Positions 1,084-43,512 of a DNA stretch of 43,512 nucleotides are shown in pieces; the first letter of the stretch is position 1; each line of letters begins with the position of its first letter. The notes beneath the pieces are model-generated. The model searched no databases. It was not told where the DNA came from and was given only the letters and a program-made list of their open reading frames with translations. The position numbers were made by a program, and so were the translations under genes. This DNA is from a virus (lineage: Duplodnaviria; Heunggongvirae; Uroviricota; Caudoviricetes). The stretch spans positions 1-43,512 of the IMG/VR virus record IMGVR_UViG_2563366800_000009; one strand, given 5' to 3'.

Positions 1084-1199
1084 TTTATCAGTTCGCTCCC
1101 ATCCGTACCAGTCCGCAAAATCCCCTGAATATCAAGCCTTCCGTATATTCACGGTTCGTCATGGTTCGCGTCAGATCGTTGACAGCCGCACTCCATGAC

Positions 1200-4795: not shown

Positions 4796-5674
4796 TCAGT
4801 AGTTATGTACTGAAGGAGGTAATTCTTTATTCTTAAGTCTCATCCATGCGGAAAGATTCGCTGGTCCGTCTGGCTCATTGATATCAACATCTCGTGTGTG
4901 ATTGATTAAAACGTCTCTCGCCATTCCGATAACATACGAGAATTCATGACCGTAGTCGTAGCATCTGCCGGAATAGTTCGATTGAACTTGTTTTAATGCC
5001 GGATACAGTTCGCGGAATAATGCCTGTGAACGGTTAGCATAATCCCATAGCCATACAAGGCTGTTTGCTTCTTTTGCAGAAAGCTCGTTTGCTTTCTTCT
5101 CTTGTTTGCCGATAAACTCGCCTTCAAGCACTACCCTGTGGATGTACTCTACGGCCAGCGGGATTTGTTCAATTGAAAGTTCATCAATGCTGTCAATACC
5201 AAAACGCTGATGAACCATATTGTATGCATCGTCATAGCGAAGTCCTTTCTTTCCTACCAGCATGTTTACTGCATCGCGTAGCGGCGTTCTTTCCTCAACA
5301 GTGGTTTTCTTGCCTTTCACATACTCGCCATGTTTGCGAATTGAAGGTAGAACTTCTGCTGTTACCCACTTGCGGAATTTGTGCGGGACCGAACCTTTAT
5401 TGACAGCATCGCGGCAGCGCAGAACCAATGTATACATACCTGATTCGCTAACAATGCTTAGATTCTGCTCACCACCAAGGGTGTAACTTAAAGTTACTCC
5501 CTTTTCATCGTCATCAAGTGCAGTAAGCGCCTTGCGTGAGTTAGTCAGGGTTAAAGCATCACAAACATCTTTTGCTACAAACCACGGCTCACCGCATTTG
5601 TTGATGACGCGGATTTCACTGTCGCCGAATTTGAAGATGGTGAAATCGTTTTGTGCCTTTGCTATACTTTTCAT
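4796..5674 (-). CDS. ant: Antirepressor Ant (BRO-N plus antirepressor C-terminal domain)
   Basis: Position downstream of arc as in P22 immI; ATG at 5674 has an AGGAAA RBS; ORF-track start at 5740 is a TTG. Confidence 0.7.
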
Positions 5675-5736
5675 GTCAATATTTCCTAATCCGATTTGTT
5701 GATACCGAAGCCCTGACTGTTCCCGCAGTTGGGGCT

Positions 5737-5910
5737 TCAACTTTTTGCTAGATTACCTTTAGAACTATCCCGCCTTAAACTATCCACTAACCGCATTACC
5801 ATCTCGGTATTTATTGAGCGACCATTTTCTTTCGCTGACTTCTCGATTGCTAACTTAACCTCTAATGGGATGCGCAAAGGGTACTTTGGTGCGTCTGACT
5901 TGACTATCAT
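5737..5910 (-). CDS. arc: Arc-like ribbon-helix-helix repressor
   Basis: [35 protein letters not shown] resembles P22 Arc; GGAGG RBS before the ATG at 5910. Confidence 0.7.
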
Positions 5911-24210: not shown

Positions 24211-24286
24211 TGGTGCTGGTTAACGGACTTGAACCGCTACCCATTCGCTTACAAGGCGACTGCTCTACCATTGGAGCTAAACCAGC
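24211..24286 (-). tRNA. Phage-encoded tRNA-Thr-like gene (anticodon UGU)
   Basis: Cloverleaf read by eye: acceptor GCTGGTT/AACCAGC, D-arm GCTC-CAATGGTA-GAGC, anticodon loop CTTGTAA, T-loop TTCAAGT, discriminator A, CCA; one anticodon-stem mismatch. Confidence 0.6.
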
Positions 24287-24291
24287 ATGTT

Positions 24292-24366
24292 TGGCGGGAC
24301 AGCGTGGACTCGAACCACGATAAGAAGGTTAACAGCCTTCCGTAATGACCTTTATACGACTGACCC
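24292..24366 (-). tRNA. Phage-encoded tRNA-Asn-like gene (anticodon GUU), possibly degenerate
   Basis: Anticodon arm GAAGG-CTGTTAA-CCTTC, T-arm CGTGG-TTCGAGT-CCACG, 3' GCCA; acceptor stem has a T-T mismatch and the D-stem is only 3 bp. Confidence 0.4.
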
Positions 24367-24946: not shown

Positions 24947-25131
24947 CGTCTTCCCCTCTTGCCCTGTTTGACCATCAGGACGCCGTTAACTATTACGTGA
25001 CGCTCGCCTTTGCTGTCTCGGTTGTACTTGAGCACTGTTCCTCTTGCGCAGGAAAGCATCCTTGCCACTTCGGTCTGATTGCCTCGTGTCTGGATAAGAA
25101 GCTCTGGTATCGTTTGAATTGTGGCGTTCAT
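24943..25131 (-). CDS. Hypothetical small protein (62 aa) between rusA and Q
   Basis: ORF overlapping Q start and rusA end. Confidence 0.4.
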   Translation of the reverse strand: MNATIQTIPELLIQTRGNQTEVARMLSCARGTVLKYNRDSKGERHVIVNGVLMVKQGKRGRR

Positions 25132-25490
25132 GCGTTCTCCAGTTCGGTGATTTTTATTCCAAGCCTTCCACCTGGTACTTTCACACCACGAATTACGCGA
25201 ATGTCATCGAATTGCTCGTCGTCTTCCGCAAATCCGGCGTGGATAAGGGAGTCGAGTAAACCTTTCAGGATGTTGTCGAGGTCGCGGCGGCGGGAGTCCG
25301 GAACGTCTGCGATTACTTTGATGCGGAGTCGTGATTTGGTGAAAATGTCTAACTTAAGTTGGCGGATGATTTGCTGAACGTCTTTTCGGTATTTCTGGCC
25401 TTTATCGCTGATGTAGTATTGGCTTCCCCGTCTTCGCCAGTAGGTATTCACCGACGGCGGGTATGGAAGCACAAACTGATATTCGTTCAT
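25128..25490 (-). CDS. rusA: Holliday junction resolvase RusA
   Basis: 120 aa with RRRDLDN motif and overall match to RusA. Confidence 0.9.
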   Translation of the reverse strand: MNEYQFVLPYPPSVNTYWRRRGSQYYISDKGQKYRKDVQQIIRQLKLDIFTKSRLRIKVIADVPDSRRRDLDNILKGLLDSLIHAGFAEDDEQFDDIRVIRGVKVPGGRLGIKITELENA

Positions 25491-25777
25491 GGCTTAATCT
25501 TCCCCTCCTTCAGTAGTATCGCCTGCGTCCTGATCACGCCTTCGAGGTGGTAAAGTCTGGCGTCTTTGTTGTCGAGATTATGGGTGCGTCGGTCGATTTC
25601 ATCGTGACACGCGCTACAAGCCCATGCGCCGATCATGTCGTCAGGTTTCATTCCCGTTCCGCAAATTCCAGCCATCCGGTAATGTGCCAGAACTGTAGTT
25701 TCAGGATTGCCATTGCATATGCCGTAAATACGTACCTGGCATTCTCTGCCACGTGCTTCTTTGCGTAGATTAGCCAT
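25487..25777 (-). CDS. ybcO: YbcO-like protein (DUF1364), putative nuclease
   Basis: 96 aa, Cys/His-rich; position upstream of rusA as in DLP12. Confidence 0.65.
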   Translation of the reverse strand: MANLRKEARGRECQVRIYGICNGNPETTVLAHYRMAGICGTGMKPDDMIGAWACSACHDEIDRRTHNLDNKDARLYHLEGVIRTQAILLKEGKIKP

Positions 25778-25982
25778 TTACCTTCCCTCGCAATTGAAGA
25801 ATTGACTGAAGGTCTTTTTTAATAAATATGCGAGTGCGAATTGAGCAGTAGTTTTCCTTCATTCTGGCGTAGTAATAGTCCTTTCTTTGCTTAAGTTTGT
25901 TGGCATCCGCTGTCATCCAGTCTTTTACAGCAAACTTAATTAACCAGCGGTGGCAGAGATACCATTTCAGGTAATCACTCAT
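25770..25982 (-). CDS. Hypothetical 70-aa nin-region protein
   Basis: ORF overlapping the upstream small gene. Confidence 0.45.
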   Translation of the reverse strand: MSDYLKWYLCHRWLIKFAVKDWMTADANKLKQRKDYYYARMKENYCSIRTRIFIKKDLQSILQLRGKVNG

Positions 25983-26145
25983 CGTCTTCTTCCTCGTACA
26001 TTGAGCTATTCGGATCGCTCATCAGTTCTGCGCAGCAGTGCTCACACACATGAACTTCCAGCACATGCAGCTTCTGACCGCAGTTAGCACACGTTAAAGC
26101 TCGCTCGACGCTTTCTTGTTCGTAACTTCGATTTTGGTCAATCAC
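25975..26145 (-). CDS. Small zinc-ribbon nin-region protein (NinD/NinF-like), 56 aa
   Basis: Not in ORF track; GTG start with GAGG RBS; CANCG...CEHCC motif. Confidence 0.45.
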
Positions 26146-26324
26146 CTTGTTTTCCTCGCACGTTCTCTAAGCCACCGGATATCCCACAGGTGAGCCGTGT
26201 AGTTGAAGGTTTTTACATCAGATTCTTTTGGGATTGGCTTGCGTTTATTTCTGGAGCGTTTCGTTGGAAGGTATTTGCAGTTTTCGCAGATTATGTCGGT
26301 GATACTTCGTCGCTGTCGTCTCAT
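26142..26324 (-). CDS. ninE: NinE-like protein
   Basis: [27 protein letters not shown]... recognised as NinE family; start at internal Met. Confidence 0.65.
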
Positions 26325-26731
26325 TCGTACCTCCTGTCGGTAAATCTGACACCCTGACCAATAGCCCATGCTGTCGTGTACTCAATCAGACTTGCCATAC
26401 GCTTCACACTCATCTGCGCGCTGCTTTCGCGAATGTTGACGTATTCGCCTTCAAGCCCGGGCAAAACATCAGCTTCCTGCTTTGTTGCCACTGCATGACC
26501 GCTTATCAACAAAACCTTCCATTGCTCTGGTTTTAACCATTTGCCGCACCATTGAACCTGACAAGCGATATCCGCCAGCATCGCGTGAAATTTTGCGTTC
26601 TGGTCAAGGTTGCGCTTGTAGTCAGTAATGCGGATGGTGACTGGCTTGTCTTTATCGAGTGGTGTTGCGAGGATGGCGTTGATTGCGGCTTGCTGTTGTT
26701 GCTTACTTCGGAGGAAGATTGTTTGCTTCAT
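26321..26731 (-). CDS. ninB: Recombination protein NinB
   Basis: Resembles lambda NinB ([25 protein letters not shown]...); start at MKQTIFL. Confidence 0.85.
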
Positions 26732-26769
26732 CGTTACTCCTTCACTTTGACTCCAGCAGCGCGAATCCG

Positions 26770-27015
26770 TCATTCGCATTCACTAATTGCGTCGTTATAA
26801 CCAAATGTGACCCCATCCTCGAAATCGGTAGAAAATGCCTCACGCTCTCTTTTTCCAGGACACTCAATCTCAATAGCTGCTCGCGATGCCTGCCACGCTT
26901 GCCAATACATCTCAACCATATTGGCGTATATTTTATTTTTATGATCACATCCGGTGTAATTTTCAAACCATTCTTCAAACTGCTTTCTTGATTCGTCCAT
27001 ATTCCTCTCCATCAC
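26770..27015 (-). CDS. Hypothetical 81-aa protein
   Basis: ORF in nin region. Confidence 0.45.
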   Translation of the reverse strand: MMERNMDESRKQFEEWFENYTGCDHKNKIYANMVEMYWQAWQASRAAIEIECPGKREREAFSTDFEDGVTFGYNDAISECE

Positions 27016-27678: not shown

Positions 27679-29217
27679 TTATTCAGTCGGCAGTGCTACG
27701 CGCCAGGGGAGCAGTTCGCCGACCCGGTTTATCGGCCAGTCGGCTATGACGTCAAGGACATAGCGGAGGTAGCTTTCTGGCTCCACTCCGTTCAGTTTGC
27801 ACGTCCCGATCAGGCTGTACAGCAGCGCTCCCCGCTCTCCTCCATGATCCGAACCGAAGAACAGGTAGTTTTTGCGGCCCAGACTGACCATCCGCAACGC
27901 ATTTTCAGCGATGTTATTGTCCGCCTCAGCCCAGCCATCATCTGCATAGTACGTCAGCGCCGGCCACTGGTTCAGGGCGTATGCGAACGCTTTCGCCAGT
28001 TCTGAGTGTCGCGACAGGGTTTTCATCTTTTCACGCAGCCAGCTTTCCAGGGATTTCAGCAGCGGTTTCGTTTTCAACTGACGTTCGGCAAGGCGCTGCT
28101 CCGCCGTCATTCCCCTTATCTCTGCCTCGATGGCGTACAGTTCGCCGATCCGTTTCAGCGCTTCCTCCGTCAGGGCTGACGGGGTGCGAACGTGCACATC
28201 GTGGATTTTACGGCGGGCGTGAGCCCAACAGGCGGCTTCCGTTATCCGGCCATCCCGGTACAGCTCGTTGAACCCGGCGTATGCATCCGCCTGCAGTACA
28301 CCACTGAACCCCGCAAGATGGGTCTGCGGATGGATGCCTTTTCTGTCCGGGCTGTAAGCGAACCACACCGCCGGCGCCAGCGTTGACCCGGCGTTACGGT
28401 CGTCACGAACGTAGGTCCATAACCGCCCGGTCTTCGTTTTCTTATTGCCTGGCAACAGCACCGGGACAGGCGTGTCATCAGCATGGAGCTTACCGTCAGT
28501 CAGCACATAGTCCTGAAGCGCTTCTTCCAGCGGTGACAGTAGCCGGCAGCATGCATCCACCCAGCCCGACAGCAGTGAACGACTCAGCTCCACGCCCTGG
28601 CGGCCGTACATTTCAGACTGGCGGTACAGCGGGGTGTGCTCTGCATACTTTGAGATCAGCACGCGGGCCAGCAGCCCCGGTCCTGCGATACCCCGCTCGA
28701 TGGGCCGTGAAGGCGCGGGGGCCTGCACGATGGCATCGCACTGAGTACAGGCATGCTTTTCACGTACAGTCCGGATAACCCGGAAGACGCTGCGCATCAA
28801 CTCCAGCTGTTCGGCGGCATCCTCACCCAGATAGCTCAGTGAGCCTCCACATTCCGGGCAGCATGACGCTGCCGGCAGCAGCCGTTTTTCATCGCGGGGG
28901 AGTGATTCGGGGAACGGTTTGCGGGTGCGGGTTTGACGCAGCGGGCGCTGCACGGCCGGGGCGTCAACCCGACCGGTAAGGGTATCACTTTCTTTCTGAA
29001 GTGCCTTCAGGTCAGCTTCCATCTGTGCGATACGACGGGAGACTTTTTCGGAGCGGCTGCCGAAGTTCATCCGGCGCAGCTTATCCAGCTGTGCCTGCAG
29101 ATGGTCTATTTCGCGTTCACGCTCGTTCAGCTTTTCCAGCAGGGCACGGTTCAGCGCCTCCTGTTCGGCAAGGAGACGTTTCAGTGCATTGATATCGTCA
29201 GGAAGTGAGCTGCTCAT
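27679..29217 (-). CDS. tnpC: IS66-family transposase TnpC (orf3)
   Basis: 512 aa with coiled-coil N-terminus, CPECG zinc motif and DDE-type core typical of IS66 transposases. Confidence 0.9.
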
Positions 29218-29265
29218 ACCGGGTATATTACCAGGCTCATTCAGCGTCGACCAGGATAAAGAGGC

Positions 29266-29613
29266 TTACAACATAGTCAGGGACGTAAGCAGTCTTTTAG
29301 GCTGCCGCCAGTCGATACCTTCAAGGAGCATCGCCAGCTGTGCCGGTGTGAGGAACACTTTGCCATCCCGGGCTGACGGCCAGGCGAAGCGGCCGCGCTC
29401 CAGCCGTTTGGTCAGCAGACACAGTCCATCGCCGGTAGACCAGAGGAGCTTTACCTGACTGCCATTACGCCCACGGAAGATAAAAACGTGACCTGACATC
29501 GGATCGTCTTTCAGCGTCGTCTGCACCTTTGCCGCCAGGCCGTTGAAGCCATTTCTCATATCGGTGATACCGGCAACCAGCCAAATTTTTGTCCCGGAAG
29601 GTAACGGGATCAT
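29266..29613 (-). CDS. tnpB: IS66-family accessory protein TnpB (orf2)
   Basis: 115 aa, MIPLPSGTKIWLVAGITDMRNGFNGLAAKV typical of IS66 orf2. Confidence 0.85.
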   Translation of the reverse strand: MIPLPSGTKIWLVAGITDMRNGFNGLAAKVQTTLKDDPMSGHVFIFRGRNGSQVKLLWSTGDGLCLLTKRLERGRFAWPSARDGKVFLTPAQLAMLLEGIDWRQPKRLLTSLTML

Positions 29614-30011
29614 CGCTTCAGTTCCTGTATCAGCAGAGTCAGGAGCTTTTCGCTGACATTGCCATTGAAGCGGAGCGTCCCGTGCCGGAACGTTACCTCA
29701 CAGCTGATACTGAGGGTTTTCGGGTCCTCTGCGAGCGATTCTGGCTGTTCGGCAGCTGCATCGAGAGTCACAGGAAGTAGCTGGGGGCTCTCTGAAGAAG
29801 GTAATAGCAGCTTTCCCTCGCGCCATTGTTGTCGCCATTTGAACAACAGATTGGCGTTAATGCCATTTTCAAGAGCAAGTTTTGAGATGGATATCCCGGG
29901 TTCACAGGAGGCAGCAACGAGCTGCTGTTTAAATTCGGGAGGATAATTAGGGCTGCCTTTTCGCCTGCCGGGAGTCACATTTTTCTGCATATCTGACACT
30001 TTGGTTCCCAC
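29610..30011 (-). CDS. tnpA: IS66-family accessory protein TnpA (orf1)
   Basis: 133 aa, overlapping tnpB as in IS66 elements. Confidence 0.8.
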   Translation of the reverse strand: MGTKVSDMQKNVTPGRRKGSPNYPPEFKQQLVAASCEPGISISKLALENGINANLLFKWRQQWREGKLLLPSSESPQLLPVTLDAAAEQPESLAEDPKTLSISCEVTFRHGTLRFNGNVSEKLLTLLIQELKR

Positions 30012-34250: not shown

Positions 34251-34619
34251 ATGGTTGGAACCGCTATAGCAAGCTTTTTTGGGATGTTGGCAATCTCGAC
34301 AATTTACGGCTTAGCGCATGCTTTTATTGCGAAATCTCTATCAGAAAAAATAAGCCAGGCTTGGGCGCATAGATCAGCTCGTTTCATGATTCTTGTGATC
34401 ATAGCAATACAAGGGATATCTGCATTTATCCTCTATGGATCAAGCTTATACCTATTGTATCAAGGCGCGACATTTACGCCTTACACCAGTGATTACGGAA
34501 CTCTATACGATGGTAGTGAAGACATCACTGTGGCTTGGATCGTCTTTGGTTTATCTATGGCCGTGTCTGTTGTAGCAGACATCATTAAGGTAATTCTCGT
34601 CTTAACCTTCGCTGACTAA
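34251..34619 (+). CDS. Small membrane protein (about 3 TM helices) directly downstream of cI at the rexAB-equivalent position
   Basis: AAGGGG RBS before ATG 34251, 18 bp after the cI stop; hydrophobic segments. Confidence 0.6.
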   Translation: MVGTAIASFFGMLAISTIYGLAHAFIAKSLSEKISQAWAHRSARFMILVIIAIQGISAFILYGSSLYLLYQGATFTPYTSDYGTLYDGSEDITVAWIVFGLSMAVSVVADIIKVILVLTFAD

Positions 34620-34750
34620 CCCATAATCCCGGCAGCAATAGCTATCGGGATCCACTTCACATATCCCGCATAAAAATCACTGAACAAGCAGACAGCGAAA
34701 AAATAAATATCCTTTGTATTCATTTGTTTATCATTATTTCATCAAAAATA

Positions 34751-34792
34751 AATACCTTGGGTATTTACACAATAAAATACCTACAGTATTCT
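34751..34792 (+). promoter_or_regulatory. oL/pL: operators AATACCTTGGGTATT (34751-34765) and AATACCTACAGTATT (34776-34790); -35 TTTACA (34764-34769), -10 TATTCT (34787-34792)
   Basis: Same half-sites and same 25-bp spacing as oR. Confidence 0.5.
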
Positions 34793-34838
34793 TTAGCCAT
34801 CAGCAGGACGCTGGAAGCCAAACGGAACAGATTGGCAG

Positions 34839-34879
34839 GCTCTTTAACATTGATGGGATTGTCCCGCCGAAATGCGGGA
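34839..34879 (+). promoter_or_regulatory. nutL site: boxA GCTCTTTAACA then boxB hairpin TCCCGCCGAAATGCGGGA
   Basis: Same boxA/boxB as nutR in opposite orientation, upstream of the N gene. Confidence 0.6.
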
Positions 34880-34986
34880 ACCAAAGAGTAGTTGGCTTTG
34901 GGGTGGCGTGAAGTGCAGCTGCACGACGGCAACCGGAAGATAAGCACCCGGCGCGTCACCGCCAAAGTCAATCATCGGAGGTCAAC

Positions 34987-35292
34987 ATGACAGTAGTCAT
35001 TACATATCTGGCTGACGATAACGCCAGAAATCGCCGCAGAGCACGCAGACAGGCTCAACGTGAACAGGCAATGCAAGAACAGCGATTGGCACGAAAAATT
35101 GCGCTAAAGCTCTCTGGTTGCGTCAGAGCAGATAAAGCAGCATCACTCGGAAGCCTTCGCTGCAAGAAGGCAGAAGAAGTCGAGCGTAAACAGAACCGTA
35201 TTTACTACCGCAAGCCACGCAGTGAAATGGGGGTGACTTGTGTTGGTCGCCAGAAAATGAAATCAGGCAGTAAGCTACTGTATGAGGGGTGA
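34987..35292 (+). CDS. N: Antitermination protein N
   Basis: Arg-rich motif NARNRRRARRQAQ near N-terminus; C-terminal RKQNRIYYRKPRSEMGVTCVGRQKMK resembles lambda N. Confidence 0.75.
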   Translation: MTVVITYLADDNARNRRRARRQAQREQAMQEQRLARKIALKLSGCVRADKAASLGSLRCKKAEEVERKQNRIYYRKPRSEMGVTCVGRQKMKSGSKLLYEG

Positions 35293-35295
35293 GAT

Positions 35296-35484
35296 ATGCA
35301 TAAATGTCAGTTCTGTGGATACATGTTTGAATCAAATGAAATGCAACGTATTTCGTTAAACCTTATCGGTAGGCCATACAACATTTGCCTAGGATGTAGC
35401 GAGAAATACAAAAACAAAGACATGTGGGACGACAATAAAAACGATATCGACTGGAATAAAGTGCCATGTATTGATGATAGTTAA
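35296..35484 (+). CDS. Hypothetical zinc-ribbon-like small protein (62 aa)
   Basis: CQFCG...CLGC motif; GAGGGGTGAG RBS. Confidence 0.5.
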   Translation: MHKCQFCGYMFESNEMQRISLNLIGRPYNICLGCSEKYKNKDMWDDNKNDIDWNKVPCIDDS

Positions 35485-35494
35485 AAATAATTAT

Positions 35495-35567
35495 GCCGCA
35501 TAGTCGGCCTTCTTTTGGCATAAACAACAGAATAAACACTGCACTGAATTATTTGAGGTGAGATATG
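35495..35567 (+). repeat. 73-bp direct repeat, copy 1 (ends with RBS and ATG of the downstream gene)
   Basis: Identical to 36021-36093. Confidence 0.85.
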
Positions 35568-36014
35568 GAAGAACAAGCAAACAAGATTCTCGTAGAACTA
35601 CTGCAAAAAGCCAGTAATGGAATAGACGCGGCTGTTTCATTTAGCCAGGCACAGATTCCTGATGTTGTTCATCAGTTGCTGCTATGGAATATGGTTGACA
35701 GTCTGATTAAAACATTAATGGCCATTCTAACAATCCCACTGGTTTTCTGGTTTATGAAGAAGCAGTGCCAAAGAGTTGAGACAGGTAAAATCGGTGATGA
35801 AGGATATTCATGGGAGAAAGGAAATCCCAAATACAGGCCGACAATGGTTTGGGATAGCAAAGGTGATATTAATCTTCTTATCATGCCATTGGTTGTAGTT
35901 TTGACTCTGTGGGGGATTTTTATTATTGGTGTAGTAACCAATATGACTTGGTTAAAAATTTGGCTGGCCCCAAAGCTTTACCTTATCGAATATGCAGCAT
36001 CATTGGTTAAGTAA
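35565..36014 (+). CDS. Membrane protein (2 TM helices) in the pL operon at the sieB-like position; candidate exclusion protein
   Basis: 149 aa; flanked by perfect 73-bp direct repeats; AT-rich. Confidence 0.6.
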   Translation: MEEQANKILVELLQKASNGIDAAVSFSQAQIPDVVHQLLLWNMVDSLIKTLMAILTIPLVFWFMKKQCQRVETGKIGDEGYSWEKGNPKYRPTMVWDSKGDINLLIMPLVVVLTLWGIFIIGVVTNMTWLKIWLAPKLYLIEYAASLVK

Positions 36015-36020
36015 TTTCAG

Positions 36021-36093
36021 GCCGCATAGTCGGCCTTCTTTTGGCATAAACAACAGAATAAACACTGCACTGAATTATTTGAGGTGAGATATG
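36021..36093 (+). repeat. 73-bp direct repeat, copy 2
   Basis: Identical to 35495-35567. Confidence 0.85.
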
Positions 36094-36561
36094 ACAAAAT
36101 CATGGAGCGTACCTTTTCCTGAATCAGAAACTGAACATGATGGAATGCCTGTTTTCTGGAGATTCCAAGCGACAGTTGAAGAAGATGGAATCAAAATATT
36201 CGCACTTCAATATATAGCTTTTCATCAGACAGAGCATTATGCATGGTTGGTTCCTGCGCATTGGATTGTTAATTTTAAACCAGCACCAAATCAGTGGTTA
36301 CAGGAATGGAAACAAAGGAGAAATAGATATGCAATTAAGAAAGTAGCAAAAAATGCAGAAAGATCTTTTGCGTTCCCGACGAAGAAACTTGCCATTGAAA
36401 GTTTATTGCGCCGGAAGAAATACCATTTGATGAGAATCAAACAAGATTTGGCTGTTGTATCAACTCTTGTTGATGGGATGAAGAATATTGATACATCAAC
36501 ACCAGATATTGAATATAACTTTGGACACAACCAAGAAACAGAAAATTGGGTGTTTTATTAG
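36091..36561 (+). CDS. Hypothetical 156-aa protein
   Basis: Start supplied by repeat copy 2; no recognisable motif. Confidence 0.55.
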   Translation: MTKSWSVPFPESETEHDGMPVFWRFQATVEEDGIKIFALQYIAFHQTEHYAWLVPAHWIVNFKPAPNQWLQEWKQRRNRYAIKKVAKNAERSFAFPTKKLAIESLLRRKKYHLMRIKQDLAVVSTLVDGMKNIDTSTPDIEYNFGHNQETENWVFY

Positions 36562-36704
36562 TATGAATAAGCACTGTGTATTCATTCCAACGAGTGAATA
36601 CACGGAGCAATGTCGCTCGTAACTAAACAGGAGCCGACTTGTTCTGATTATTGGAAATCTTCTTTGCCCTCCGATGTGAGGGCGATTTTTTTGATGGAGG
36701 ATAT

Positions 36705-37673
36705 ATGAGTGAAGTAACAGATTTAGTTGTTATTGAAAAAGCAAATGCAATGACTGTATTTCAGTCTGCCGACCAGATTGAAGAAATCCTTCAAAAGGTT
36801 GAACGTGAAGTTATGTCCTTTGTGCCTGATATCACAACGGCAAAGGGCAGAAAGGAGATCGCTTCTCTGGCGTATAAAGTTGCGCAGACGAAAACATATC
36901 TCGATGGTCTTGGAAAAGACCTTGTTGCTGAACTGAAGGAAATTCCAAAGCTAATTGATGCCAACCGCAAGACAGTGCGTGATCGCCTTGATGAGCTGAA
37001 ATCCAAGGCACGCCAGCCTCTTACTGATTATGAGGAGGAACAGGCACGGATTAAAGCCGAAGAAGAAGCTAAGGCAGCAGCTGAAGCTCTCGCAAAGCAA
37101 ATTGAGTCTGACCATGAAATAGCTATTTTGATGGATCGCGAATTTGACCGCCAAAGAGAAGAGGCAAGACTCAAAGCGGAGCAGGAAAAGCGAGAGCATG
37201 AAGAACGCTTAAAAAGAGAAGCTGAAGAGAAAGCCAGAGCAGAAGCCGAAGCAAAGGCAAAAGCCGAAATTGAAGCAGCAGCAAGGCGAGAAGCAGAAGC
37301 TAAGGCCGCAGCGGAACGTGCAGAGCGTGAACGCATTGAAGCCGAGCAACGAGCACAGCGCGAAGCAAAAGAGGCAGCAGAACGAGCTGAAAGAGAAAAG
37401 CAGGCGGCAATTGAAGCAGAACGCCGAAAAGCACAGGAGGAGGCTGAACGAATCCGGCGCGAGGCTGAAGCAAAAGAGCAAGCCAGAATAGCAGAAGAAA
37501 AAAGAATCAAGGACGAAGAAGAGCGTAGAGCAAAGGATAAAGCTCACCGGAAAGAAGTAAATAACAAAATACTTGCTGACCTTATCAAGGTTGGCGCATC
37601 AGAAGATGTTGCTAAAAATATCATAACAGCCATCGTAAAAGGCAAAGTATTCGCAACAAAAATAACCTACTAA
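36705..37673 (+). CDS. Coiled-coil protein with long Ala/Glu/Lys/Arg-rich low-complexity region (TolA-like repeats)
   Basis: GGAGG RBS before ATG 36705; about 150 aa of EAKAKAE/AERAERE-type repeats. Confidence 0.55.
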   Translation: MSEVTDLVVIEKANAMTVFQSADQIEEILQKVEREVMSFVPDITTAKGRKEIASLAYKVAQTKTYLDGLGKDLVAELKEIPKLIDANRKTVRDRLDELKSKARQPLTDYEEEQARIKAEEEAKAAAEALAKQIESDHEIAILMDREFDRQREEARLKAEQEKREHEERLKREAEEKARAEAEAKAKAEIEAAARREAEAKAAAERAERERIEAEQRAQREAKEAAERAEREKQAAIEAERRKAQEEAERIRREAEAKEQARIAEEKRIKDEEERRAKDKAHRKEVNNKILADLIKVGASEDVAKNIITAIVKGKVFATKITY

Positions 37674-37697
37674 TAAAACCAACATAAGGAACCACCC

Positions 37698-37844
37698 ATG
37701 ATTTACGCAATCGCGGGAGGCGCTCGCATGGGTGCCTTCCAATTAAATGAATCTTTACTTGAACGAATCACCCGTAAATTACGTGACGGATGGAAACGAC
37801 TCATCGACGTACTTAATCAGCCAGGAGTTCCAAAAAATGGATAA
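37698..37844 (+). CDS. cIII: CIII (FtsH inhibitor stabilising CII), 48 aa
   Basis: Not in ORF track; ...ESLLERITRKLRDGWKRLIDVLNQPGVPKNG resembles lambda CIII. Confidence 0.8.
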   Translation: MIYAIAGGARMGAFQLNESLLERITRKLRDGWKRLIDVLNQPGVPKNG

Positions 37845-37950
37845 AACACTTATGGCTATTCAGACTAAATTCACTATCGCCACTTTTATTGGCGATGAAA
37901 AGATGTTTCGTGAGGCCGTCGAAGCCTACAGAAAATGGAGGTCTAAATGA
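37837..37950 (+). CDS. Small protein (37 aa) immediately after cIII; Kil-like by position
   Basis: Overlaps cIII stop; called by synteny only. Confidence 0.4.
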   Translation: MDKTLMAIQTKFTIATFIGDEKMFREAVEAYRKWRSK

Positions 37951-38135
37951 TTCCGGTAGAGCTGGCGAAAACTCCAGAGTTAAGTCGATTAAAAAGAGAA
38001 TATCACATTGCTGAGGCTCGTTACTGGCGTAAAGCGGGAGATAAATCAAAGAAACAACTTTGTTTATGGCAAGCGCAAAGAGAGCGCATGAATGAGCGCG
38101 AATTTCTTTCCGCCCCATCCGAATTACCATTCTGA
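37947..38135 (+). CDS. Hypothetical 62-aa protein
   Basis: ATGA overlap with upstream ORF. Confidence 0.4.
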   Translation: MIPVELAKTPELSRLKREYHIAEARYWRKAGDKSKKQLCLWQAQRERMNEREFLSAPSELPF

Positions 38136-38143
38136 GGTGAATT

Positions 38144-38824
38144 ATGGGAACTGCGACATTAATACTCGGTGAGTCTGGCACCGGAAAATCAACCAGCATG
38201 AGAAATATCAATCCAGAGGAAGCAATACTTATAAAACCAATAGGCAAGCCGCTACCATTTAAATCAAAAGAATGGCTGGCATGGGATGCCAGAGCAAAAA
38301 AAGGAACCGTAGTTACCACTGACAAATGGGACGTAATAGTTTCCGTAATTAAGCGTGCTCACGAATACGGGAAAAGAATCGTTATTGTTGATGACTTCCA
38401 GTATGTGATGAGCAATGAGTTTATGCGCCGCTCAGAAGAAAAATCGTTTGATAAATTTACTGAGATAGGCCGCCACGCATGGGAGGTGATTAAGGCTGCA
38501 CAGGATGCACCTGATGACCTGAGAGTCTATTTTCTTGCGCACACCGAAGAAACCCCTATGGGGCGCGTGAAAATGAAAACTATCGGCAAAATGCTGGACG
38601 AGAAAATCACTGTCGAAGGCATGTTTACTATAGTTCTTCGCACTCTTACCCGCGATGACCAGTTCTTTTTCACCACGAAAAACAACGGTGCAGACACTGT
38701 TAAATCCCCAATGGGAATGTTTGATTCCAATGAGATTGATAACGATCTCTCTTTCGTCGATGCCACTGTTTGTGATTACTACGGCATCAATAATGTTCAT
38801 CAAATTAAGGAAAACGCCGCATGA
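38144..38824 (+). CDS. P-loop ATPase, RecA-core-like (Sak4-type recombination ATPase)
   Basis: Walker A GESGTGKST and Walker B IVIVDD. Confidence 0.65.
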   Translation: MGTATLILGESGTGKSTSMRNINPEEAILIKPIGKPLPFKSKEWLAWDARAKKGTVVTTDKWDVIVSVIKRAHEYGKRIVIVDDFQYVMSNEFMRRSEEKSFDKFTEIGRHAWEVIKAAQDAPDDLRVYFLAHTEETPMGRVKMKTIGKMLDEKITVEGMFTIVLRTLTRDDQFFFTTKNNGADTVKSPMGMFDSNEIDNDLSFVDATVCDYYGINNVHQIKENAA

Positions 38825-39408
38825 GCAACGTGATTTTTACTTATAACGAAGAAGCAGCACTGACCGCAGGGCAAGGTGGTTTTATTAACGAAACTGGCGC
38901 TCATATCATTACCATTACTGAAGCAGAACTAAAGCAATCAGAAAAAGGAGCCAAATTTATTGAGTTTTCTGGCGAATCCGACGACGGACGTAAAATCCAA
39001 TATCTTAGCGTCTGTGTTCAGAAAAATGACGGAACGGAAAACAAATTTGGCGCAAATGTCGTTCACGCCATGATGGGGTGTGCCGGGATTGGACAATTAA
39101 CGCAGCATATGGTTTCCGCCAGTAAATTTGTTGCACCTGAATTTCATGGAAAGAAAATCGGGTTAGTGCTTCAGAAAGTATTAACCACAAACAAAAAGAC
39201 TGGCGCAGACAGCTACCAGATGGAAATACGCATCCCGTTTATTGCACAAACAGGTAAAACCCTTAAAGAAAAGGCAGAAGGCAAGCAACCAGAAACTATC
39301 GCCAACATGGTTGCCAATCTCAAAGATAAAGACAATCGCTCTAAAAACGTAAGCCAGAATCATGCAGATGATTATGGTTACAGCCAGAACGATTACCCTC
39401 CTTTCTGA
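38821..39408 (+). CDS. Putative ssDNA-binding protein partner of the ATPase; acidic C-terminal tail ending DYPPF
   Basis: C-terminal tail resembles the SSB DDDIPF-type tip; coupled to the ATPase gene. Confidence 0.45.
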   Translation: MSNVIFTYNEEAALTAGQGGFINETGAHIITITEAELKQSEKGAKFIEFSGESDDGRKIQYLSVCVQKNDGTENKFGANVVHAMMGCAGIGQLTQHMVSASKFVAPEFHGKKIGLVLQKVLTTNKKTGADSYQMEIRIPFIAQTGKTLKEKAEGKQPETIANMVANLKDKDNRSKNVSQNHADDYGYSQNDYPPF

Positions 39409-39431
39409 TTACTGAAAATAAGGCTCCCATT

Positions 39432-39728
39432 ATGCCAGCGCCTCTGTATGGTGCGGATGACCCGCGCAATTGCTCCGGTAGCTCCAAGGCGGAGGTGCTG
39501 GAAAATATCAAAAACATTTTCGACACGTTTATCGATCTGCCACCAGAAACAAAAGCAGAACGGATGTACCGACGCGATATACAACTCGCGTTAAAAGATG
39601 AGAAGGACCGAACAAACGAAACAGCAATGAGACCGTTGCGAAAAGCGACAATAGACAAATTCCCTGAATATATCGACCCGCGCCTGCGTAATTACCGCTC
39701 ACGCTATGGCGCTATCAGTAATGACTGA
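39432..39728 (+). CDS. Hypothetical 98-aa protein
   Basis: ORF in early-left region. Confidence 0.45.
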
Positions 39729-39903
39729 GGAATTTACCATGAGAGGGCTTGCATACAATCCCGGCATTCTTCCGGCAGAAATGATTATTCGCCAACGCGT
39801 AAAGCCAATGCCATCGAGAGAGGAATTGCTTAAGAGAAATTCTTTTCCGTCAGTAAATCAAAACAAATATCTGAATGCGATGTTGCGGAGTGGGAAAAAA
39901 TGA
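39706..39903 (+). CDS. Hypothetical small protein (likely starts at ATG 39739)
   Basis: GAGGAA RBS before 39739. Confidence 0.4.
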
Positions 39904-40361
39904 AACAAATGTCACTAATTGAGATGGATGGATTTCTGAAAGGTAAATGCATTCCAAGTGATTTAAAGGTTAACGAAACAAACGCTGAATATCTTGTCCG
40001 TAAGTTCGGTGAACTTGAATCAAAACTGGAAACGGCGTTGCGGGAGTGTCGTTCTGCTGGAATCACGATTGATAACCTTGAGGCTAAATGCGCGAAGATG
40101 GCTGCTGAAAATACCTCGCTTAAGCAATCTGAGAAGGAATTTAATGACTTTTGTCGTGAGGAGTTTAGCGAATGGGAAGATGATGTTACTGAAACCCAAG
40201 CCACCGACGCTTTCCTGGCTGAAATTGAACGCAAAGCAATCCGCAAGTTCATTAACAGCATTGAACACATCCTGCGTGACAAGCTGTCTCCGTATGACAC
40301 CGAAGAGATGCTTGAGGCTATGCGTATTTTTCTGGAAGAACAGGAAGGTGAGCAAAAATGA
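39900..40361 (+). CDS. Hypothetical 153-aa protein sharing the ATDAFLAE motif with Ea22-like proteins
   Basis: Motif [15 protein letters not shown]. Confidence 0.5.
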
Positions 40362-40663
40362 CGATCACAAAACAACGTGTAGAAGAAATCATATCCCGTA
40401 TTGAAATGTATGGGCATGGTGCCGGGTATACCGCTGATGAGGTTTATGACCTTGCTGTACTGGCGCTGAATTTATCAAATATCGCAAAACTCAAGCGATA
40501 CGAGCTTGATATGGATGGTTGTGACTCGTTCGGTCAGGATTGTGGCGCTGACATGACTGAAGATTCTGATGGCGATTATGTCCTGTTTGATGACGTAGTT
40601 AAGTTGTTTGAGTTTGATACATTCGAAAGCCCAGCAAAGGAGGCAACCAGTGAGCAAGATTGA
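40358..40663 (+). CDS. Hypothetical acidic 101-aa protein
   Basis: ORF overlapping neighbours. Confidence 0.45.
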   Translation: MTITKQRVEEIISRIEMYGHGAGYTADEVYDLAVLALNLSNIAKLKRYELDMDGCDSFGQDCGADMTEDSDGDYVLFDDVVKLFEFDTFESPAKEATSEQD

Positions 40664-41447
40664 CTATCAGGCACTGCGTGAAAAGGCAGAGAAAGCAACT
40701 AAAGGAAGCTACATCGTAGGGCATACATCTGTTAACCAGCACGGCAATTTAACAGGAGTTTTTGTTTGTCAAAAATGGAAAGGAGAGCCAGGTGGCGTGA
40801 TTGCAGAATGTCACGTTAACTGCCTGGTTGAAACAGATGCTCAGGCTTATGCAAACGCTGAATTTATTGCTGCCTTTAATCCAAATGTTGCGCTGGCACT
40901 ACTGGATGAACGAGATGCATTAAATGAACGCCTAGCCGAACTGGAGGCTGATTTAGCAGGGCTGGCCGAAGACCACCAGAAAGCGACTGAGTCAATTAAG
41001 CAGGCTGATGCAGCTGTTAAGTTGGCACACGAGAAGTTTTCGGCGCTGGCGGCGGAGAATGCGGGGCTGAAAGACACTCTATCAGCAGTGATTGACCGCA
41101 GTAACGAGCCTGATTATCAAAGCATCGGAATGGGCTGTGGTGTTGAGGATAACGGTCTTCAGACTGACGGTTATAACGCCTGTGAATATGGATGGCGCGA
41201 AGCAATGGATCGCATTTACTCAGAAGTTATTCCAGACACTATTCCTGAAACCCCGGCGACAGACGCCTTCCTGGCTGAAGTGCGGGCGCATGACCTCAAC
41301 GCTTTCATTCGGCATCACAGTGCAGAACTGGATGCGCATATTAAAAACGGTGGTGAGCAGTTCGACGAAAAATCAGTACGCATCAGAGACATCATCGTCT
41401 CAGCCCGCTTGTTCAGGGAGCAGATTCGCAAGGAGGCCGCCCAATGA
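40653..41447 (+). CDS. Ea22-like protein
   Basis: GTG start with AAGGAGG RBS; coiled coil; [17 protein letters not shown] motif. Confidence 0.6.
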   Translation, partial: SKIDYQALREKAEKATKGSYIVGHTSVNQHGNLTGVFVCQKWKGEPGGVIAECHVNCLVETDAQAYANAEFIAAFNPNVALALLDERDALNERLAELEADLAGLAEDHQKATESIKQADAAVKLAHEKFSALAAENAGLKDTLSAVIDRSNEPDYQSIGMGCGVEDNGLQTDGYNACEYGWREAMDRIYSEVIPDTIPETPATDAFLAEVRAHDLNAFIRHHSAELDAHIKNGGEQFDEKSVRIRDIIVSARLFREQIRKEAAQ

Positions 41448-41821
41448 GCAACATCGACAAACAGGCGCTGCGTGAAATCGCAGCGGCAGCAGTTGGCGCA
41501 CATGAGCGCCTTAGTGTTATGCCGCCTGATGACATTTTCGATATCTCACTGGCAGAAGGAACTCAGCTTGATGCAGATATCACTGCCTTGAACGCGCTGA
41601 ACTCCGCAGCCAACCCCGCCACCGTGCTGGCGCTGCTGGATGAGCTGGAAGCCGCAGAGAAGCGAATCGCTGAACTGGAAGCGAAGCTCGATAGCGCAGA
41701 TAAATTGCAAGATAGCGCATTTCGTCATGGTCTTCAGCATGGCTTCAGTTTTGGTCAAACGGATAATCAGGCTGGATTTGAAGAGTGCTTATCTGCCTAT
41801 GGCACCGGTAAAGGAGAGTGA
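41444..41821 (+). CDS. Ea22-like N-terminal paralog (125 aa)
   Basis: N-terminus DKQALREIAAAA parallels the KIDYQALREKAEKA of the preceding gene. Confidence 0.5.
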   Translation: MSNIDKQALREIAAAAVGAHERLSVMPPDDIFDISLAEGTQLDADITALNALNSAANPATVLALLDELEAAEKRIAELEAKLDSADKLQDSAFRHGLQHGFSFGQTDNQAGFEECLSAYGTGKGE

Positions 41822-42096
41822 ATGTGAAAAATTATCTCAGCAATTTAGCCAGCATGCTTCAGGGGATTGCAGGTGTCATTTCAGACGGCGAGCGGGTGCA
41901 GAAAGAGTGCCCTGCGCACTTAAAGTCAGCACTACTCGAGGCTTCTCACGCGCTAGATGGTCAATCGGTCAGGGTCAATTATCCGCCTAATGGAAAGCCT
42001 GAAATTGTTAATGCCCGCGGACACCATCGACCGCTTACCTTCCGGGAACGAGTGGCAATCCGCTTACTTGGTGGCAGGACGGAGATTCGCCCATGA
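41818..42096 (+). CDS. Hypothetical 92-aa protein
   Basis: ORF, GTG start. Confidence 0.4.
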   Translation: MNVKNYLSNLASMLQGIAGVISDGERVQKECPAHLKSALLEASHALDGQSVRVNYPPNGKPEIVNARGHHRPLTFRERVAIRLLGGRTEIRP

Positions 42097-42899
42097 GCAC
42101 TATTACCAGAGAACTGGCAAAGCTGTTCAGAAAAATTACGAATTCTGAAATTGATGCGGAGGGTAACGCTCATGTTGTTTTATCTCCTGCTGATAGCCTC
42201 CTGATTAATAATGCGCGTATCGCGCTGGCATCGCTCGAAGCGGAGCCTGTGGCGTGGGCGCACAGATTAATCAACAAGCGTAACGGAGTCGTTCACCCTT
42301 GGGTTTACGGTAGCGCAGAGGCGTGTCCAAGCGAGGGGGATATCTTCAATATTGAGGTAATGCCGCTCTACACCGTCCCTCCAGCGCCGGTATCTGTGCC
42401 CGCTGCGATGGAAATTGATGATGACTTTGACAGCGCGTTTGAACACGGAAAAGCTGTCGGCTGGAACGCCTATCGCGCCGCCATGCTTCAGGCCGAACCT
42501 GTAAGTAATAGTGATGAGTTACCGCTGGACTATCTGCAAGGACACAAAGACGGCCTGGAGTGGGCTGCACAATTGGCAGAAGCCAATCATCCGCAAACAG
42601 GTGACTGGTTGTACGACGACCAAATCGATCTTGCCAGGGCGATTCGCAAAGGTCCGGATATGCCTACTGTTCAGGGTGGCAACTCTCCGGTGATTCCGGA
42701 TGGTTGGATTCCAGTAAGCGAGCGGATGCCAGGCTCACAAGAGTGGGTAATCGTGTTCGCTAAATGGGATAATCAGCAGGTCTTGTGCTGGGATGATGTG
42801 GCAAATCGCTGGACAGATTTTGAAGACCAATCCTACTACGCCTATATGTTCACCCACTGGATGCCGCTGCCAGAACCGCCGGAGCAGGATGGTGAATGA
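42093..42899 (+). CDS. DUF551-domain protein
   Basis: C-terminal WIPVSERMPG...THWMPLPEPP typical of DUF551. Confidence 0.55.
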   Translation: MSTITRELAKLFRKITNSEIDAEGNAHVVLSPADSLLINNARIALASLEAEPVAWAHRLINKRNGVVHPWVYGSAEACPSEGDIFNIEVMPLYTVPPAPVSVPAAMEIDDDFDSAFEHGKAVGWNAYRAAMLQAEPVSNSDELPLDYLQGHKDGLEWAAQLAEANHPQTGDWLYDDQIDLARAIRKGPDMPTVQGGNSPVIPDGWIPVSERMPGSQEWVIVFAKWDNQQVLCWDDVANRWTDFEDQSYYAYMFTHWMPLPEPPEQDGE

Positions 42900-43311: not shown

Positions 43312-43512
43312 ATGCAACACGAACTACAGCCTGATTCACTGGTTGATTTGAAATTCATCATGGCCGATACTGGCTTCGGTAAAACCTTCATCTATGACCG
43401 GATTAAGTCCGGCGACCTGCCAAAAGCCAAAGTTATCCACGGGCGAGCAAGATGGTTATATCGTGACCATTGTGAATTCAAAAATAAGCTCTTAAGCCGC
43501 GCCAATGGGTAA
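43312..43512 (+). CDS. torI: Recombination directionality factor (excisionase) TorI
   Basis: MQHELQPDSLVDLKFIMADTGFGKTFIYDRIKSGDLPKAKVIHGRARWLYRDHCEFKNKLL, recognised as KplE1 TorI; the window ends at its stop codon. Confidence 0.85.
   Translation: MQHELQPDSLVDLKFIMADTGFGKTFIYDRIKSGDLPKAKVIHGRARWLYRDHCEFKNKLLSRANG

What the first reader, a model, noticed from the sequence alone, without database searches (positions are those of the whole stretch)
38144..39408. Recombination module is a P-loop ATPase plus SSB-like pair rather than Red or Erf
After cIII and a Kil-like ORF the phage carries a 226-aa Walker A/B ATPase and a 195-aa protein with an acidic tail ending DYPPF (reminiscent of the SSB C-terminal tip), instead of exo/bet/gam or P22 erf/abc. 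This suggests a Sak4-type annealing system, though the second protein is not a clear-cut SSB.
Basis: partly seen in the sequence, partly recalled or inferred. Interest (0 to 1): 0.4.

Follow-up and report, generated by a model that had tools for sequence, protein, structure and literature searches.

The report
Known HK620-type Sak4–SSB recombination module

Summary
ORFs 38144-38824 (226 aa, Walker A/B) and 38821-39408 (195 aa, tail ...NDYPPF) lie after cIII and kil and overlap by ATGA.

They are 225/226 and 192/195 identical to HK620 HkaL (Sak4) and HkaK (SSB-HK620). Hutinet et al. 2018 showed HK620 Sak4 to be an ATP-dependent ssDNA binder and annealase. Its cognate tetrameric SSB stimulates it through the last six residues, NDYPPF, which are identical here.

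Independent checks agree:
- PHROG profiles: Sak4-like 4e-108, SSB 6e-67.
- The SSB follows sak4 in 75 of 80 related viral loci.

- A P22-type abc2 anti-RecBCD gene is present at 39432-39728, as a divergent allele 61% identical to P22 and HK620 Abc2.
- The partner is an experimentally established SSB, not a doubtful one.

The real module has four genes: hkaM-sak4-ssb-abc2. It occurs in 187 of 5426 complete E. coli genomes.

Verdict: already known, low interest.

One unexplained lead: the function-unknown HkaM keeps an SSB-like C-terminal tip, [L/I/M]-P-F.

The parts
37698..37844 (+). cIII. It lies upstream of the module in the same pL operon and is not itself a recombination gene.
   Evidence: phrog_550 'CIII', 6e-29. 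77% identical to P22 C3 by tblastn.
37837..37950 (+). kil (37 aa). It overlaps cIII by 8 nt and overlaps hkaM by ATGA.
   Evidence: Pfam Lambda_Kil 4e-21 on residues 32-62 of the longer ORF 37747-37950. Same 114-nt length as HK620 kil. Junctions read.
37947..38135 (+). hkaM homolog (62 aa), first gene of the HK620-type Rec module, function unknown. It ends ...PSELPF.
   Evidence: 61/62 identical to HK620 HkaM. phrog_1723 2.7e-33. Tip [L/I/M]-P-F kept in 60-68% identical homologs. Named as function-unknown in PMC5928155.
38144..38824 (+). sak4 (226 aa): a core-only RecA-like ATPase and ATP-dependent single-strand annealing protein.
38168..38191 (+). Walker A motif GESGTGKS (Sak4 residues 9-16).
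   Evidence: Read from the translation. G9, S11, G12, G14 and K15 are invariant in alignment A2.
38378..38395 (+). Walker B motif IVIVDD (Sak4 residues 79-84).
   Evidence: Read. D83 and D84 are invariant in alignment A2.
38821..39408 (+). ssb (195 aa): the cognate HK620-type SSB ('SSB-2'), an atypical OB fold with a disordered acidic/aromatic tail. Its start overlaps the sak4 stop (ATGA).
39388..39405 (+). SSB C-terminal tip NDYPPF, the six residues needed for Sak4 recruitment and stimulation in HK620.
   Evidence: Identical to HK620. Its role is shown by the delta-6 mutant in PMC5928155. The terminal F is nearly invariant in alignment A1. Among 75 Sak4-linked SSBs, 58 end in F and 46 end in PF.
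39432..39728 (+). abc2 (98 aa): a P22-type anti-RecBCD (RecC-binding) protein, here as a divergent allele.
   Evidence: Pfam PF11043 Anti-RecBCD_p2, 3.3e-35, 120.6 bits against a cut-off of 25. phrog_656 6e-44. 61% identical to HK620 Abc2 and to P22 Abc2. About 94% identical to the allele in Stx-converting phages.

Best explanation
This is the HK620-type homologous-recombination (Rec) module of a P22-like lambdoid prophage. It sits in the N-antiterminated early-left (pL) operon as four tightly packed genes: hkaM, sak4, ssb and abc2.

The proposed mechanism:
1. Abc2 binds host RecC and reprograms RecBCD, so that DNA ends are resected instead of the phage DNA being destroyed. This step is inferred by homology with P22 Abc2.
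2. The phage SSB, a tetrameric atypical OB-fold protein, coats the resulting single-stranded DNA.
3. Once on DNA, the SSB's C-terminal tip NDYPPF recruits Sak4.
4. Sak4 is a RecA-core-only ATPase that binds ssDNA only with ATP. It then anneals complementary SSB-coated strands.

The expected outcome is RecA-independent single-strand annealing: recombination between phage genomes and probably support of late, recombination-dependent replication.

Steps 2 to 4 were shown experimentally for the 98-99% identical HK620 proteins. They are transferred here by near-identity. The in vivo role in the phage life cycle is inferred.
For: Identity to the characterised pair:
- Sak4 is 225/226 identical and the SSB 192/195 identical, with the NDYPPF tip unchanged.
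- Gene lengths, order and spacing match HK620 hkaM-hkaL-hkaK-hkaJ.

Published biochemistry and genetics of the HK620 pair (PMC5928155, read):
- ATP-dependent ssDNA binding and annealing by Sak4.
- A tetrameric SSB.
- Oligo recombineering raised 15-fold by sak4 alone and about 210-fold with ssb.

Independent checks made here:
- PHROG profiles are Sak4-like at 4e-108 and SSB at 6e-67.
- Pfam AAA_24 scores above its gathering threshold.
- The partner models as an OB fold.
- The SSB homolog lies directly downstream of sak4 in 75 of 80 related viral loci, and 32 of those show the same 4-nt overlap. Tips end in F in 58 of 75, and 13 are exactly DDDIPF.
- Abc2 is identified by Pfam at 3e-35.
- No Red or Erf genes occur anywhere in the window.
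- The scan finds no promoter-like site within or next to the module; the only + strand site in 34600-40400 lies upstream of N, which fits one pL transcript.

The HK620 Rec-module type (Sak4, SSB-2, Abc2) is catalogued among lambdoid phages in PMC12315714.
Against: - Nothing was measured on this exact allele. It differs from HK620 by S67 (A in HK620) in Sak4 and by K146 (Q), E153 (V) and N166 (S) in the SSB. K146 sits where at least 90% of family members have Q.
- The Abc2 allele is only 61% identical to the characterised P22 and HK620 proteins, so its RecC-binding activity is inferred.
- The prophage carries an IS66-type insertion in its early-right region and may be defective. Expression of the module in this host is therefore unproven.
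- In HK620 itself, abc2 and hkaM added nothing to oligo recombineering, and Sak4/SSB did not perform strand exchange in vitro (PMC5928155). The natural substrate and the contribution to phage growth remain open.
Confidence: 0.95

Rival explanations
1. The 226-aa protein is a generic P-loop NTPase with a function unrelated to recombination, such as a replication, packaging or defence ATPase. On this reading its neighbour is an unrelated small protein whose PF ending is a coincidence.
For: - NCBI names the exact sequences only 'ATP-binding protein' and 'hypothetical protein' or 'DUF669 domain-containing protein'.
- Pfam gives only generic AAA_24 and AAA_22 hits for the ATPase and nothing for the partner.
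- NCBIfam gives no significant hit.
Against: - 99% and 98% identity to proteins with demonstrated annealase and SSB activities (PMC5928155).
- The best structural match is a solved Sak4, followed by recombinases of the RecA/RAD51 family.
- The partner has an OB fold.
- The adjacency and the SSB-like tip are conserved across diverged loci.
Confidence: 0.02
2. Sak4 with its SSB is a true RecA-like strand-exchange recombinase that carries out dsDNA invasion, not merely an annealase. In this view the SSB supplies the missing second DNA-binding site.
For: - The fold is a RecA/RAD51 core.
- In HK620, sak4 plus ssb raised post-conjugation plasmid-chromosome recombination about 20-fold in a recA strain. 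The authors themselves suggest the SSB may act as a second DNA site (PMC5928155).
Against: - Purified Sak4, with or without the SSB, did not perform strand exchange in vitro and did not stimulate RecA (PMC5928155, abstract and discussion).
- The protein lacks RecA's C-terminal DNA-binding domain. It is 226 aa and core-only in the model.
- The in vivo crossover frequency was 500-fold below that of RecA.
Confidence: 0.05
3. The module is intact in sequence but is a silent passenger in a decaying prophage, so it has no current function in this genome.
For: - The prophage carries a three-ORF IS66-type element between replication gene P and the nin region (the GC jump is seen).
- Prophage copies are common in E. 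coli chromosomes (187 of 5426 complete genomes), and many prophages are defective.
Against: - All four module ORFs are full length with intact motifs and near-identity to a viable phage.
- The rest of the prophage keeps intact-looking int, structural, lysis-regulation, replication, immunity and N genes.
- The IS lies between genes rather than visibly inside one.
Confidence: 0.1

Closest known systems
Phage HK620 Sak4 (HkaL) and SSB-HK620 (HkaK), within the hkaM-sak4-ssb-abc2 Rec module (Hutinet et al. 2018, PMC5928155; GenBank AF335538)
   Same: - Gene order, lengths and spacing are the same.
- Sak4 is 225/226 identical, the SSB 192/195 and HkaM 61/62.
- The NDYPPF tip, Walker A and Walker B are identical.
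- The position after cIII and kil in the pL operon is the same.
   Different: - The Abc2 allele is only 61% identical.
- There are four conservative substitutions in Sak4 and the SSB.
- The surrounding phage is a different mosaic: only about 47% of the early region matches HK620, at 97%.
- Here the element is an integrated prophage.
Sak4 of a staphylococcal phage (ORF016), solved in complex with SaPI2 Stl (PDB 8RC5; PMC11846896)
   Same: - The same family name and the same role as a phage single-strand annealing protein.
   Different: - Only 14% sequence identity.
- A Gram-positive phage.
- It is known there as the trigger of a phage satellite. No such satellite link is known or tested for the E. 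coli protein.
Archaeal RadB and eukaryotic RAD51 paralogs (RAD51C, RAD51D, XRCC2, XRCC3); bacterial RecA
   Different: - No N- or C-terminal accessory domains.
- It anneals rather than exchanges strands, and does not cooperate with RecA (PMC5928155).
P22 recombination module arf-erf-abc1-abc2
   Same: - The same location after c3/kil.
- It shares abc2: Pfam PF11043 and 61% identity.
   Different: - Erf (Rad52-like), Abc1 and Arf are absent from the window.
- They are replaced position-for-position by Sak4, the SSB and HkaM, which are unrelated in sequence.
Lambda Red (exo-bet-gam)
   Same: The functional niche is the same: a RecA-independent annealing pathway combined with RecBCD control, encoded in the early-left operon.
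   Different: - No Exo, Bet or Gam homolog is present.
- There is no phage exonuclease; resection is presumably left to Abc2-modified RecBCD.
- The annealase is ATP-dependent and needs its own SSB.
PrgE of plasmid pCF10 (PDB 8S4S) and the atypical phage SSBs (N4 gp45 type, Pfam DUF669)
   Same: - Hutinet et al. relate HkaK to N4 gp45 and to DUF669.
   Different: - 13% identity to PrgE.
- No hmmscan hit to any Pfam family, including DUF669 and the canonical SSB PF00436, at E up to 10.

Membership tests
Sak4 family of phage single-strand annealing proteins (phrog_2872; Pfam AAA_24 PF13479) | Full-length match to the family profile. | tested here: met
   phrog_2872 at 4.2e-108, residues 1-220 on profile positions 1-218 of 219. 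PF13479 at 30.2 bits against a gathering score of 27.
Sak4 family of phage single-strand annealing proteins (phrog_2872; Pfam AAA_24 PF13479) | Core-only RecA/RAD51-type ATPase fold without the N- or C-terminal domains of RecA. | tested here: met
   [not shown]
Sak4 family of phage single-strand annealing proteins (phrog_2872; Pfam AAA_24 PF13479) | Intact Walker A and Walker B motifs. | tested here: met
   GESGTGKS at residues 9-16 and IVIVDD at 79-84. The key residues are invariant in 35 homologs.
Sak4 family of phage single-strand annealing proteins (phrog_2872; Pfam AAA_24 PF13479) | An adjacent cognate ssb gene. Hutinet et al. report this for up to 80% of sak4 genes. | tested here: met
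   ssb starts 4 nt before the sak4 stop. 75 of 80 related viral loci have the SSB homolog directly downstream.
Sak4 family of phage single-strand annealing proteins (phrog_2872; Pfam AAA_24 PF13479) | ATP-dependent ssDNA binding and annealing, and recombineering activity. | not testable with these tools
   Shown for the 225/226-identical HK620 protein (PMC5928155). Transferred here by identity.
HK620-type phage SSB ('SSB-2'; phrog_743) | Match to the family profile and to the type protein HkaK. | tested here: met
   phrog_743 at 6.3e-67. 192/195 identical to HkaK.
HK620-type phage SSB ('SSB-2'; phrog_743) | OB-fold core. | tested here: met
   [not shown]
HK620-type phage SSB ('SSB-2'; phrog_743) | Disordered acidic/aromatic C-terminal tail ending in PF, which mediates partner binding. 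| tested here: met
   The tail HADDYGYSQNDYPPF is identical to HK620. Residues 177-193 have pLDDT below 50. The terminal F is nearly invariant. 46 of 75 linked SSBs end in PF.
HK620-type phage SSB ('SSB-2'; phrog_743) | Tetramer that binds ssDNA and stimulates Sak4. | not testable with these tools
   Shown for the 98%-identical HK620 protein (PMC5928155).
Pfam DUF669 (PF05037) | hmmscan match to the Pfam model. | tested here: inconclusive
   No DUF669 hit at E up to 10 in the current Pfam-A, and none in the precomputed Pfam columns. Against that, NCBI names 98-99% identical proteins 'DUF669 domain-containing', and Hutinet et al. assign HkaK to DUF669 by profile-profile search.
Canonical bacterial SSB (Pfam PF00436) | Match to the SSB profile. 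| tested here: not met
   No hit at E up to 10, and no PDB sequence hit. The protein works like an SSB but is not a member of PF00436. [quoted passage not shown]
Abc2 anti-RecBCD (Pfam PF11043) | Full-length profile match. | tested here: met
   3.3e-35, 120.6 bits against a cut-off of 25, residues 1-98 on profile 1-97 of 97. phrog_656 at 6e-44. RecC binding was not tested.
Lambda Red (Exo, Bet, Gam) and P22 Erf/Abc1/Arf | Any homolog encoded in the window. | tested here: not met
   tblastn of the lambda and P22 proteins against all six frames of the window gives a best E of 0.085.

The most novel reading that the evidence does not exclude
The function-unknown first gene of the module, hkaM (37947-38135, 62 aa), may encode a mimic of the SSB C-terminal tip.

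What the evidence shows:
- Its last residues...SELPF, persist as [D/E/K/R]-[L/I/M]-P-F in homologs only 60-68% identical, while the linker just before them varies in sequence and length. This resembles the bacterial SSB tip DDDIPF and the phage SSB tip NDYPPF.
- HkaM homologs sit directly upstream of the annealase gene whatever its family: the 226-aa Sak4, a longer AAA_24 type of 287-290 aa, Erf, or a Rad52-like protein.

The proposal is that HkaM is a portable accessory that competes for, or recruits, proteins that dock on SSB tails. These could be host proteins such as ExoI, RecQ or PriA, or the phage annealase itself.

Nothing here tests binding. In HK620, hkaM added nothing to oligo recombineering.
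Probability: 0.15. Interest if true: 0.5.

Novelty: already known. Interest (0 to 1): 0.1.

Why it matters
It matters little for discovery. This is a textbook instance of a module that was characterised biochemically in 2018 and catalogued among lambdoid Rec-module types in 2025.

The practical value is in annotation:
- The exact proteins are still labelled 'ATP-binding protein', 'hypothetical protein' or 'DUF669 domain-containing protein' in RefSeq E. coli genomes.
- The module is present in about 3.4% of complete E. coli genomes (187 of 5426).
- The names Sak4 annealase, cognate SSB and Abc2 can be transferred to these proteins with confidence.

The only open thread is the role of HkaM and of the divergent Abc2 allele.

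Tried and rejected
- Pfam scan of the 195-aa protein at E up to 10 gave no DUF669 or SSB hit, only noise.
- NCBIfam gave nothing significant for any of the four module proteins.
- Sequence search of the PDB with both proteins gave no meaningful hit. Only the fold search found the solved Sak4.
- Chi sites (GCTGGTGG): none in the window against 1.2 expected by chance, so the count is uninformative.
- Rfam gathering scan found no RNA family inside the module.
- The promoter scan found no credible internal promoter. The terminator-like hits inside the ORFs are weak and close to the chance count, 10 found against 6.1 expected.
- Antisense ORFs over the pair (38432-38803, 38527-38766 and 37813-38325 on the - strand) were set aside as by-products of the coding strand, because the + strand ORFs are 98-99% identical to known proteins.
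- Looking for HkaM diversity in the 80 viral Sak4 loci failed. HkaM and Abc2 occur only in the loci whose Sak4 is at least 98% identical, so a separate homolog search was needed.
- The idea that HkaM is specific to Sak4 was rejected, since its homologs also precede Erf and Rad52-like annealases.
- The idea that SSB-2 is exclusive to Sak4 was rejected, since 64-65% identical SSB-2 proteins follow a Rad52-like annealase in two Salmonella loci.

Full report
**Observation.** The window has the two ORFs exactly as described: 38144-38824 (+, 226 aa) and 38821-39408 (+, 195 aa). The first carries Walker A (GESGTGKS, residues 9-16) and Walker B (IVIVDD, residues 79-84). The second ends HADDYGYSQNDYPPF. 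The sak4 stop and the ssb start overlap in ATGA, as do kil and the 62-aa ORF upstream. cIII (37698-37844) and kil (37837-37950) precede them.

**What it is.** PHROG profiles name the two proteins directly: phrog_2872 'Sak4-like ssDNA annealing protein' (4e-108, full length) and phrog_743 'single strand DNA binding protein' (6e-67). Pfam gives AAA_24 just above its gathering score for the ATPase. It gives nothing for the partner even at E up to 10.

A megablast of the region finds hundreds of lambdoid and Stx-converting phages. The early region of the window is closest to phage HK620 (97.3% over 47%). The HK620 record (AF335538) has genes hkaM, hkaL, hkaK and hkaJ with exactly the same lengths and spacing. 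Direct comparison gives:
- 225/226 identity to HkaL.
- 192/195 identity to HkaK, with an identical tail.
- 61/62 identity to HkaM.
- Only 60/98 identity to HkaJ/Abc2.

**What is known about the HK620 pair.** Hutinet et al. 2018 (PMC5928155) state that hkaL is sak4 and hkaK is ssb. They report the following:
- Purified Sak4 binds ssDNA only with ATP and does not bind dsDNA.
- Sak4 anneals complementary strands in an ATP-dependent way.
- SSB-HK620 runs as a tetramer, binds ssDNA and blocks RecA-mediated annealing, yet strongly stimulates Sak4 annealing.
- Deleting its last six residues, NDYPPF, abolishes Sak4 binding to SSB-coated DNA and turns stimulation into inhibition.
- In vivo, oligo recombineering rises 15-fold with sak4 alone and about 210-fold with sak4 plus ssb.
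- abc2 and hkaM add nothing in that assay.

The window proteins differ from the HK620 proteins at one and three non-motif positions, and the NDYPPF tip is identical. This mechanism therefore transfers by near-identity. A 2025 survey of lambdoid phages lists the HK620 Rec module (Sak4, 'SSB-2', Abc2, no nuclease) as one of the standard module types (PMC12315714).

**Independent tests run here.** I collected homologs of both proteins, aligned 35 of each and predicted structures.
- *Gene neighbourhood.* I surveyed the 80 best Sak4 loci from viral contigs. The SSB homolog lies directly downstream in 75 of them, and 32 show the same 4-nt overlap. The SSB tips end in F in 58 of 75 and in PF in 46, and 13 are exactly the E. 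coli SSB tip DDDIPF. The pairing and the tip are conserved features, not chance.

- The phrase 'instead of ... erf/abc' is half wrong. tblastn with lambda Exo, Bet, Gam and P22 Erf, Abc1, Arf finds nothing in the window (best E 0.085). P22 Abc2 hits 39432-39725 at 61% identity (E 6e-36), and Pfam PF11043 scores 120.6 bits.
- The module is therefore hkaM-sak4-ssb-abc2.
- The allele of abc2 is not the HK620/P22 one. It is about 94% identical to the allele in Stx-converting phages and TL-2011a. A mosaic joint must therefore lie at or just after the ssb-abc2 intergenic gap.
- The partner is an established SSB, not a doubtful one.

**Distribution and annotation.**
- The sak4-ssb DNA is found in 187 of 5426 complete E. 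coli genomes, always on chromosomes. There it is annotated 'ATP-binding protein' plus 'hypothetical protein' or 'DUF669 domain-containing protein'.
- All four exact protein sequences are already in public collections.
- RefSeq phage records of relatives already use the name 'Sak4-like ssDNA annealing protein'.

**Context.** The window is a nearly complete P22-like prophage in prophage order.
- The left end has a host formate/nitrite-transporter gene (1-933), tRNA-Arg(CCT) (1009-1083) and an integrase (1209-2402).
- These are followed by the tailspike and the late genes on the - strand.
- Next come Q, RusA, an HNH protein and NinB/Orf, then an IS66-type three-ORF element, then the P and O replication genes.
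- The + strand then carries the pL operon from N to an xis-like ORF at the right end.
- NinB/Orf and RusA give the phage two further recombination functions outside the module.

**A lead noticed on the way.**
- HkaM ends ...SELPF.
- A homolog search found only 19 clusters, all in Enterobacteriaceae.
- In the 60-68% identical members the tip is still [D/E/K/R]-[L/I/M]-P-F, after a variable linker.
- These homologs sit directly upstream of the annealase whether it is Sak4, a longer AAA_24 protein, Erf or a Rad52-like protein.
- This suggests a portable accessory with an SSB-tip-like ending.

**Verdict.** Interest is low.

Noticed in passing
window 37947-38135 (+); loci L082-L087: HkaM (62 aa, function unknown) ends ...SELPF. 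Homologs only 60-68% identical keep a [D/E/K/R]-[L/I/M]-P-F tip after a variable linker, which resembles SSB C-terminal tips. HkaM homologs sit directly upstream of four different annealase types: Sak4, a long AAA_24 protein, Erf and a Rad52-like protein.
   Followed up: partly
window 39432-39728 (+): The Abc2 allele is only 61% identical to HK620 and P22 Abc2, but about 94% identical to the allele of Stx-converting phages and TL-2011a. The flanking sak4 and ssb are 98-99% HK620-like, so a mosaic joint lies at or near the 23-nt ssb-abc2 gap. The N-terminal 11 residues and the C-terminal RSRYGAISN are conserved.
   Followed up: partly
window 27679-30011 (-): Three transposase ORFs (133, 115 and 512 aa; phrog_1013, phrog_623, phrog_688), arranged as in an IS66-family element. 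They lie between replication gene P and the nin region. GC is 0.61 here against about 0.47 around it. The element may affect early-right expression.
   Followed up: partly
window 1-2402 and 43312-43512: This is the prophage boundary. A host formate/nitrite-transporter gene (1-933) and tRNA-Arg(CCT) (1009-1083) are followed by a phage integrase (1209-2402) next to the tailspike. An xis-like ORF sits at the far right end, so int and xis are at opposite ends of the prophage. From memory, this is the layout of the KplE1/CPS-53 type of prophage at argW.
   Followed up: partly
window 24211-24366 (-): Two phage-encoded tRNAs, tRNA-Thr(TGT) and tRNA-Asn(GTT), lie just downstream of the Q antiterminator gene.
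   Followed up: no
window 5676-5742 (+) and 4796-5740 (-): A sar antisense RNA (Rfam RF00262, 71.6 bits) overlaps the start of a P22-type antirepressor gene (Bro-N plus P22_AR_C domains). This is a P22 immI-like region.
   Followed up: no
window 36651-37673 (+): A 340-aa protein whose central part is an extremely charged E/A/K/R-rich repeat-like helix (phrog_1376, unknown function). A related phage annotates it 'TolA protein'. It lies between N and cIII in the pL operon.
   Followed up: no
window 25128-26779 (-): The nin region carries further recombination functions: the NinB/Orf mediator (26321-26779), a RusA-like Holliday-junction resolvase (25128-25490) and an HNH endonuclease (25487-25777).
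   Followed up: partly
window 39256-39258 (SSB residue K146): The window's SSB has K at position 146, where HK620 and at least 90% of 35 family members have Q (motif T-x-Q-T-L). The position lies outside the OB core and the tail. Its significance is unknown.
   Followed up: no
loci L085 3195-4511 and L086 3195-4518: In two Salmonella loci an SSB-2 homolog (64-65% identical, tips GDTDY and GDMDY) follows a Rad52_Rad22-family annealase rather than Sak4. This SSB type is therefore not exclusive to Sak4.
   Followed up: partly
window 39900-42899 (+): A run of coiled-coil ORFs (153, 279, 125 and 268 aa) of the ead/Ea22 type, judged by their similarity to HK620 hkaG. They share segments with one another: the overlapping PHROG hits are phrog_368, 614, 14548, 250, 492 and 1138. 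They look like a mosaic, internally repetitive gene set downstream of the Rec module.
   Followed up: no
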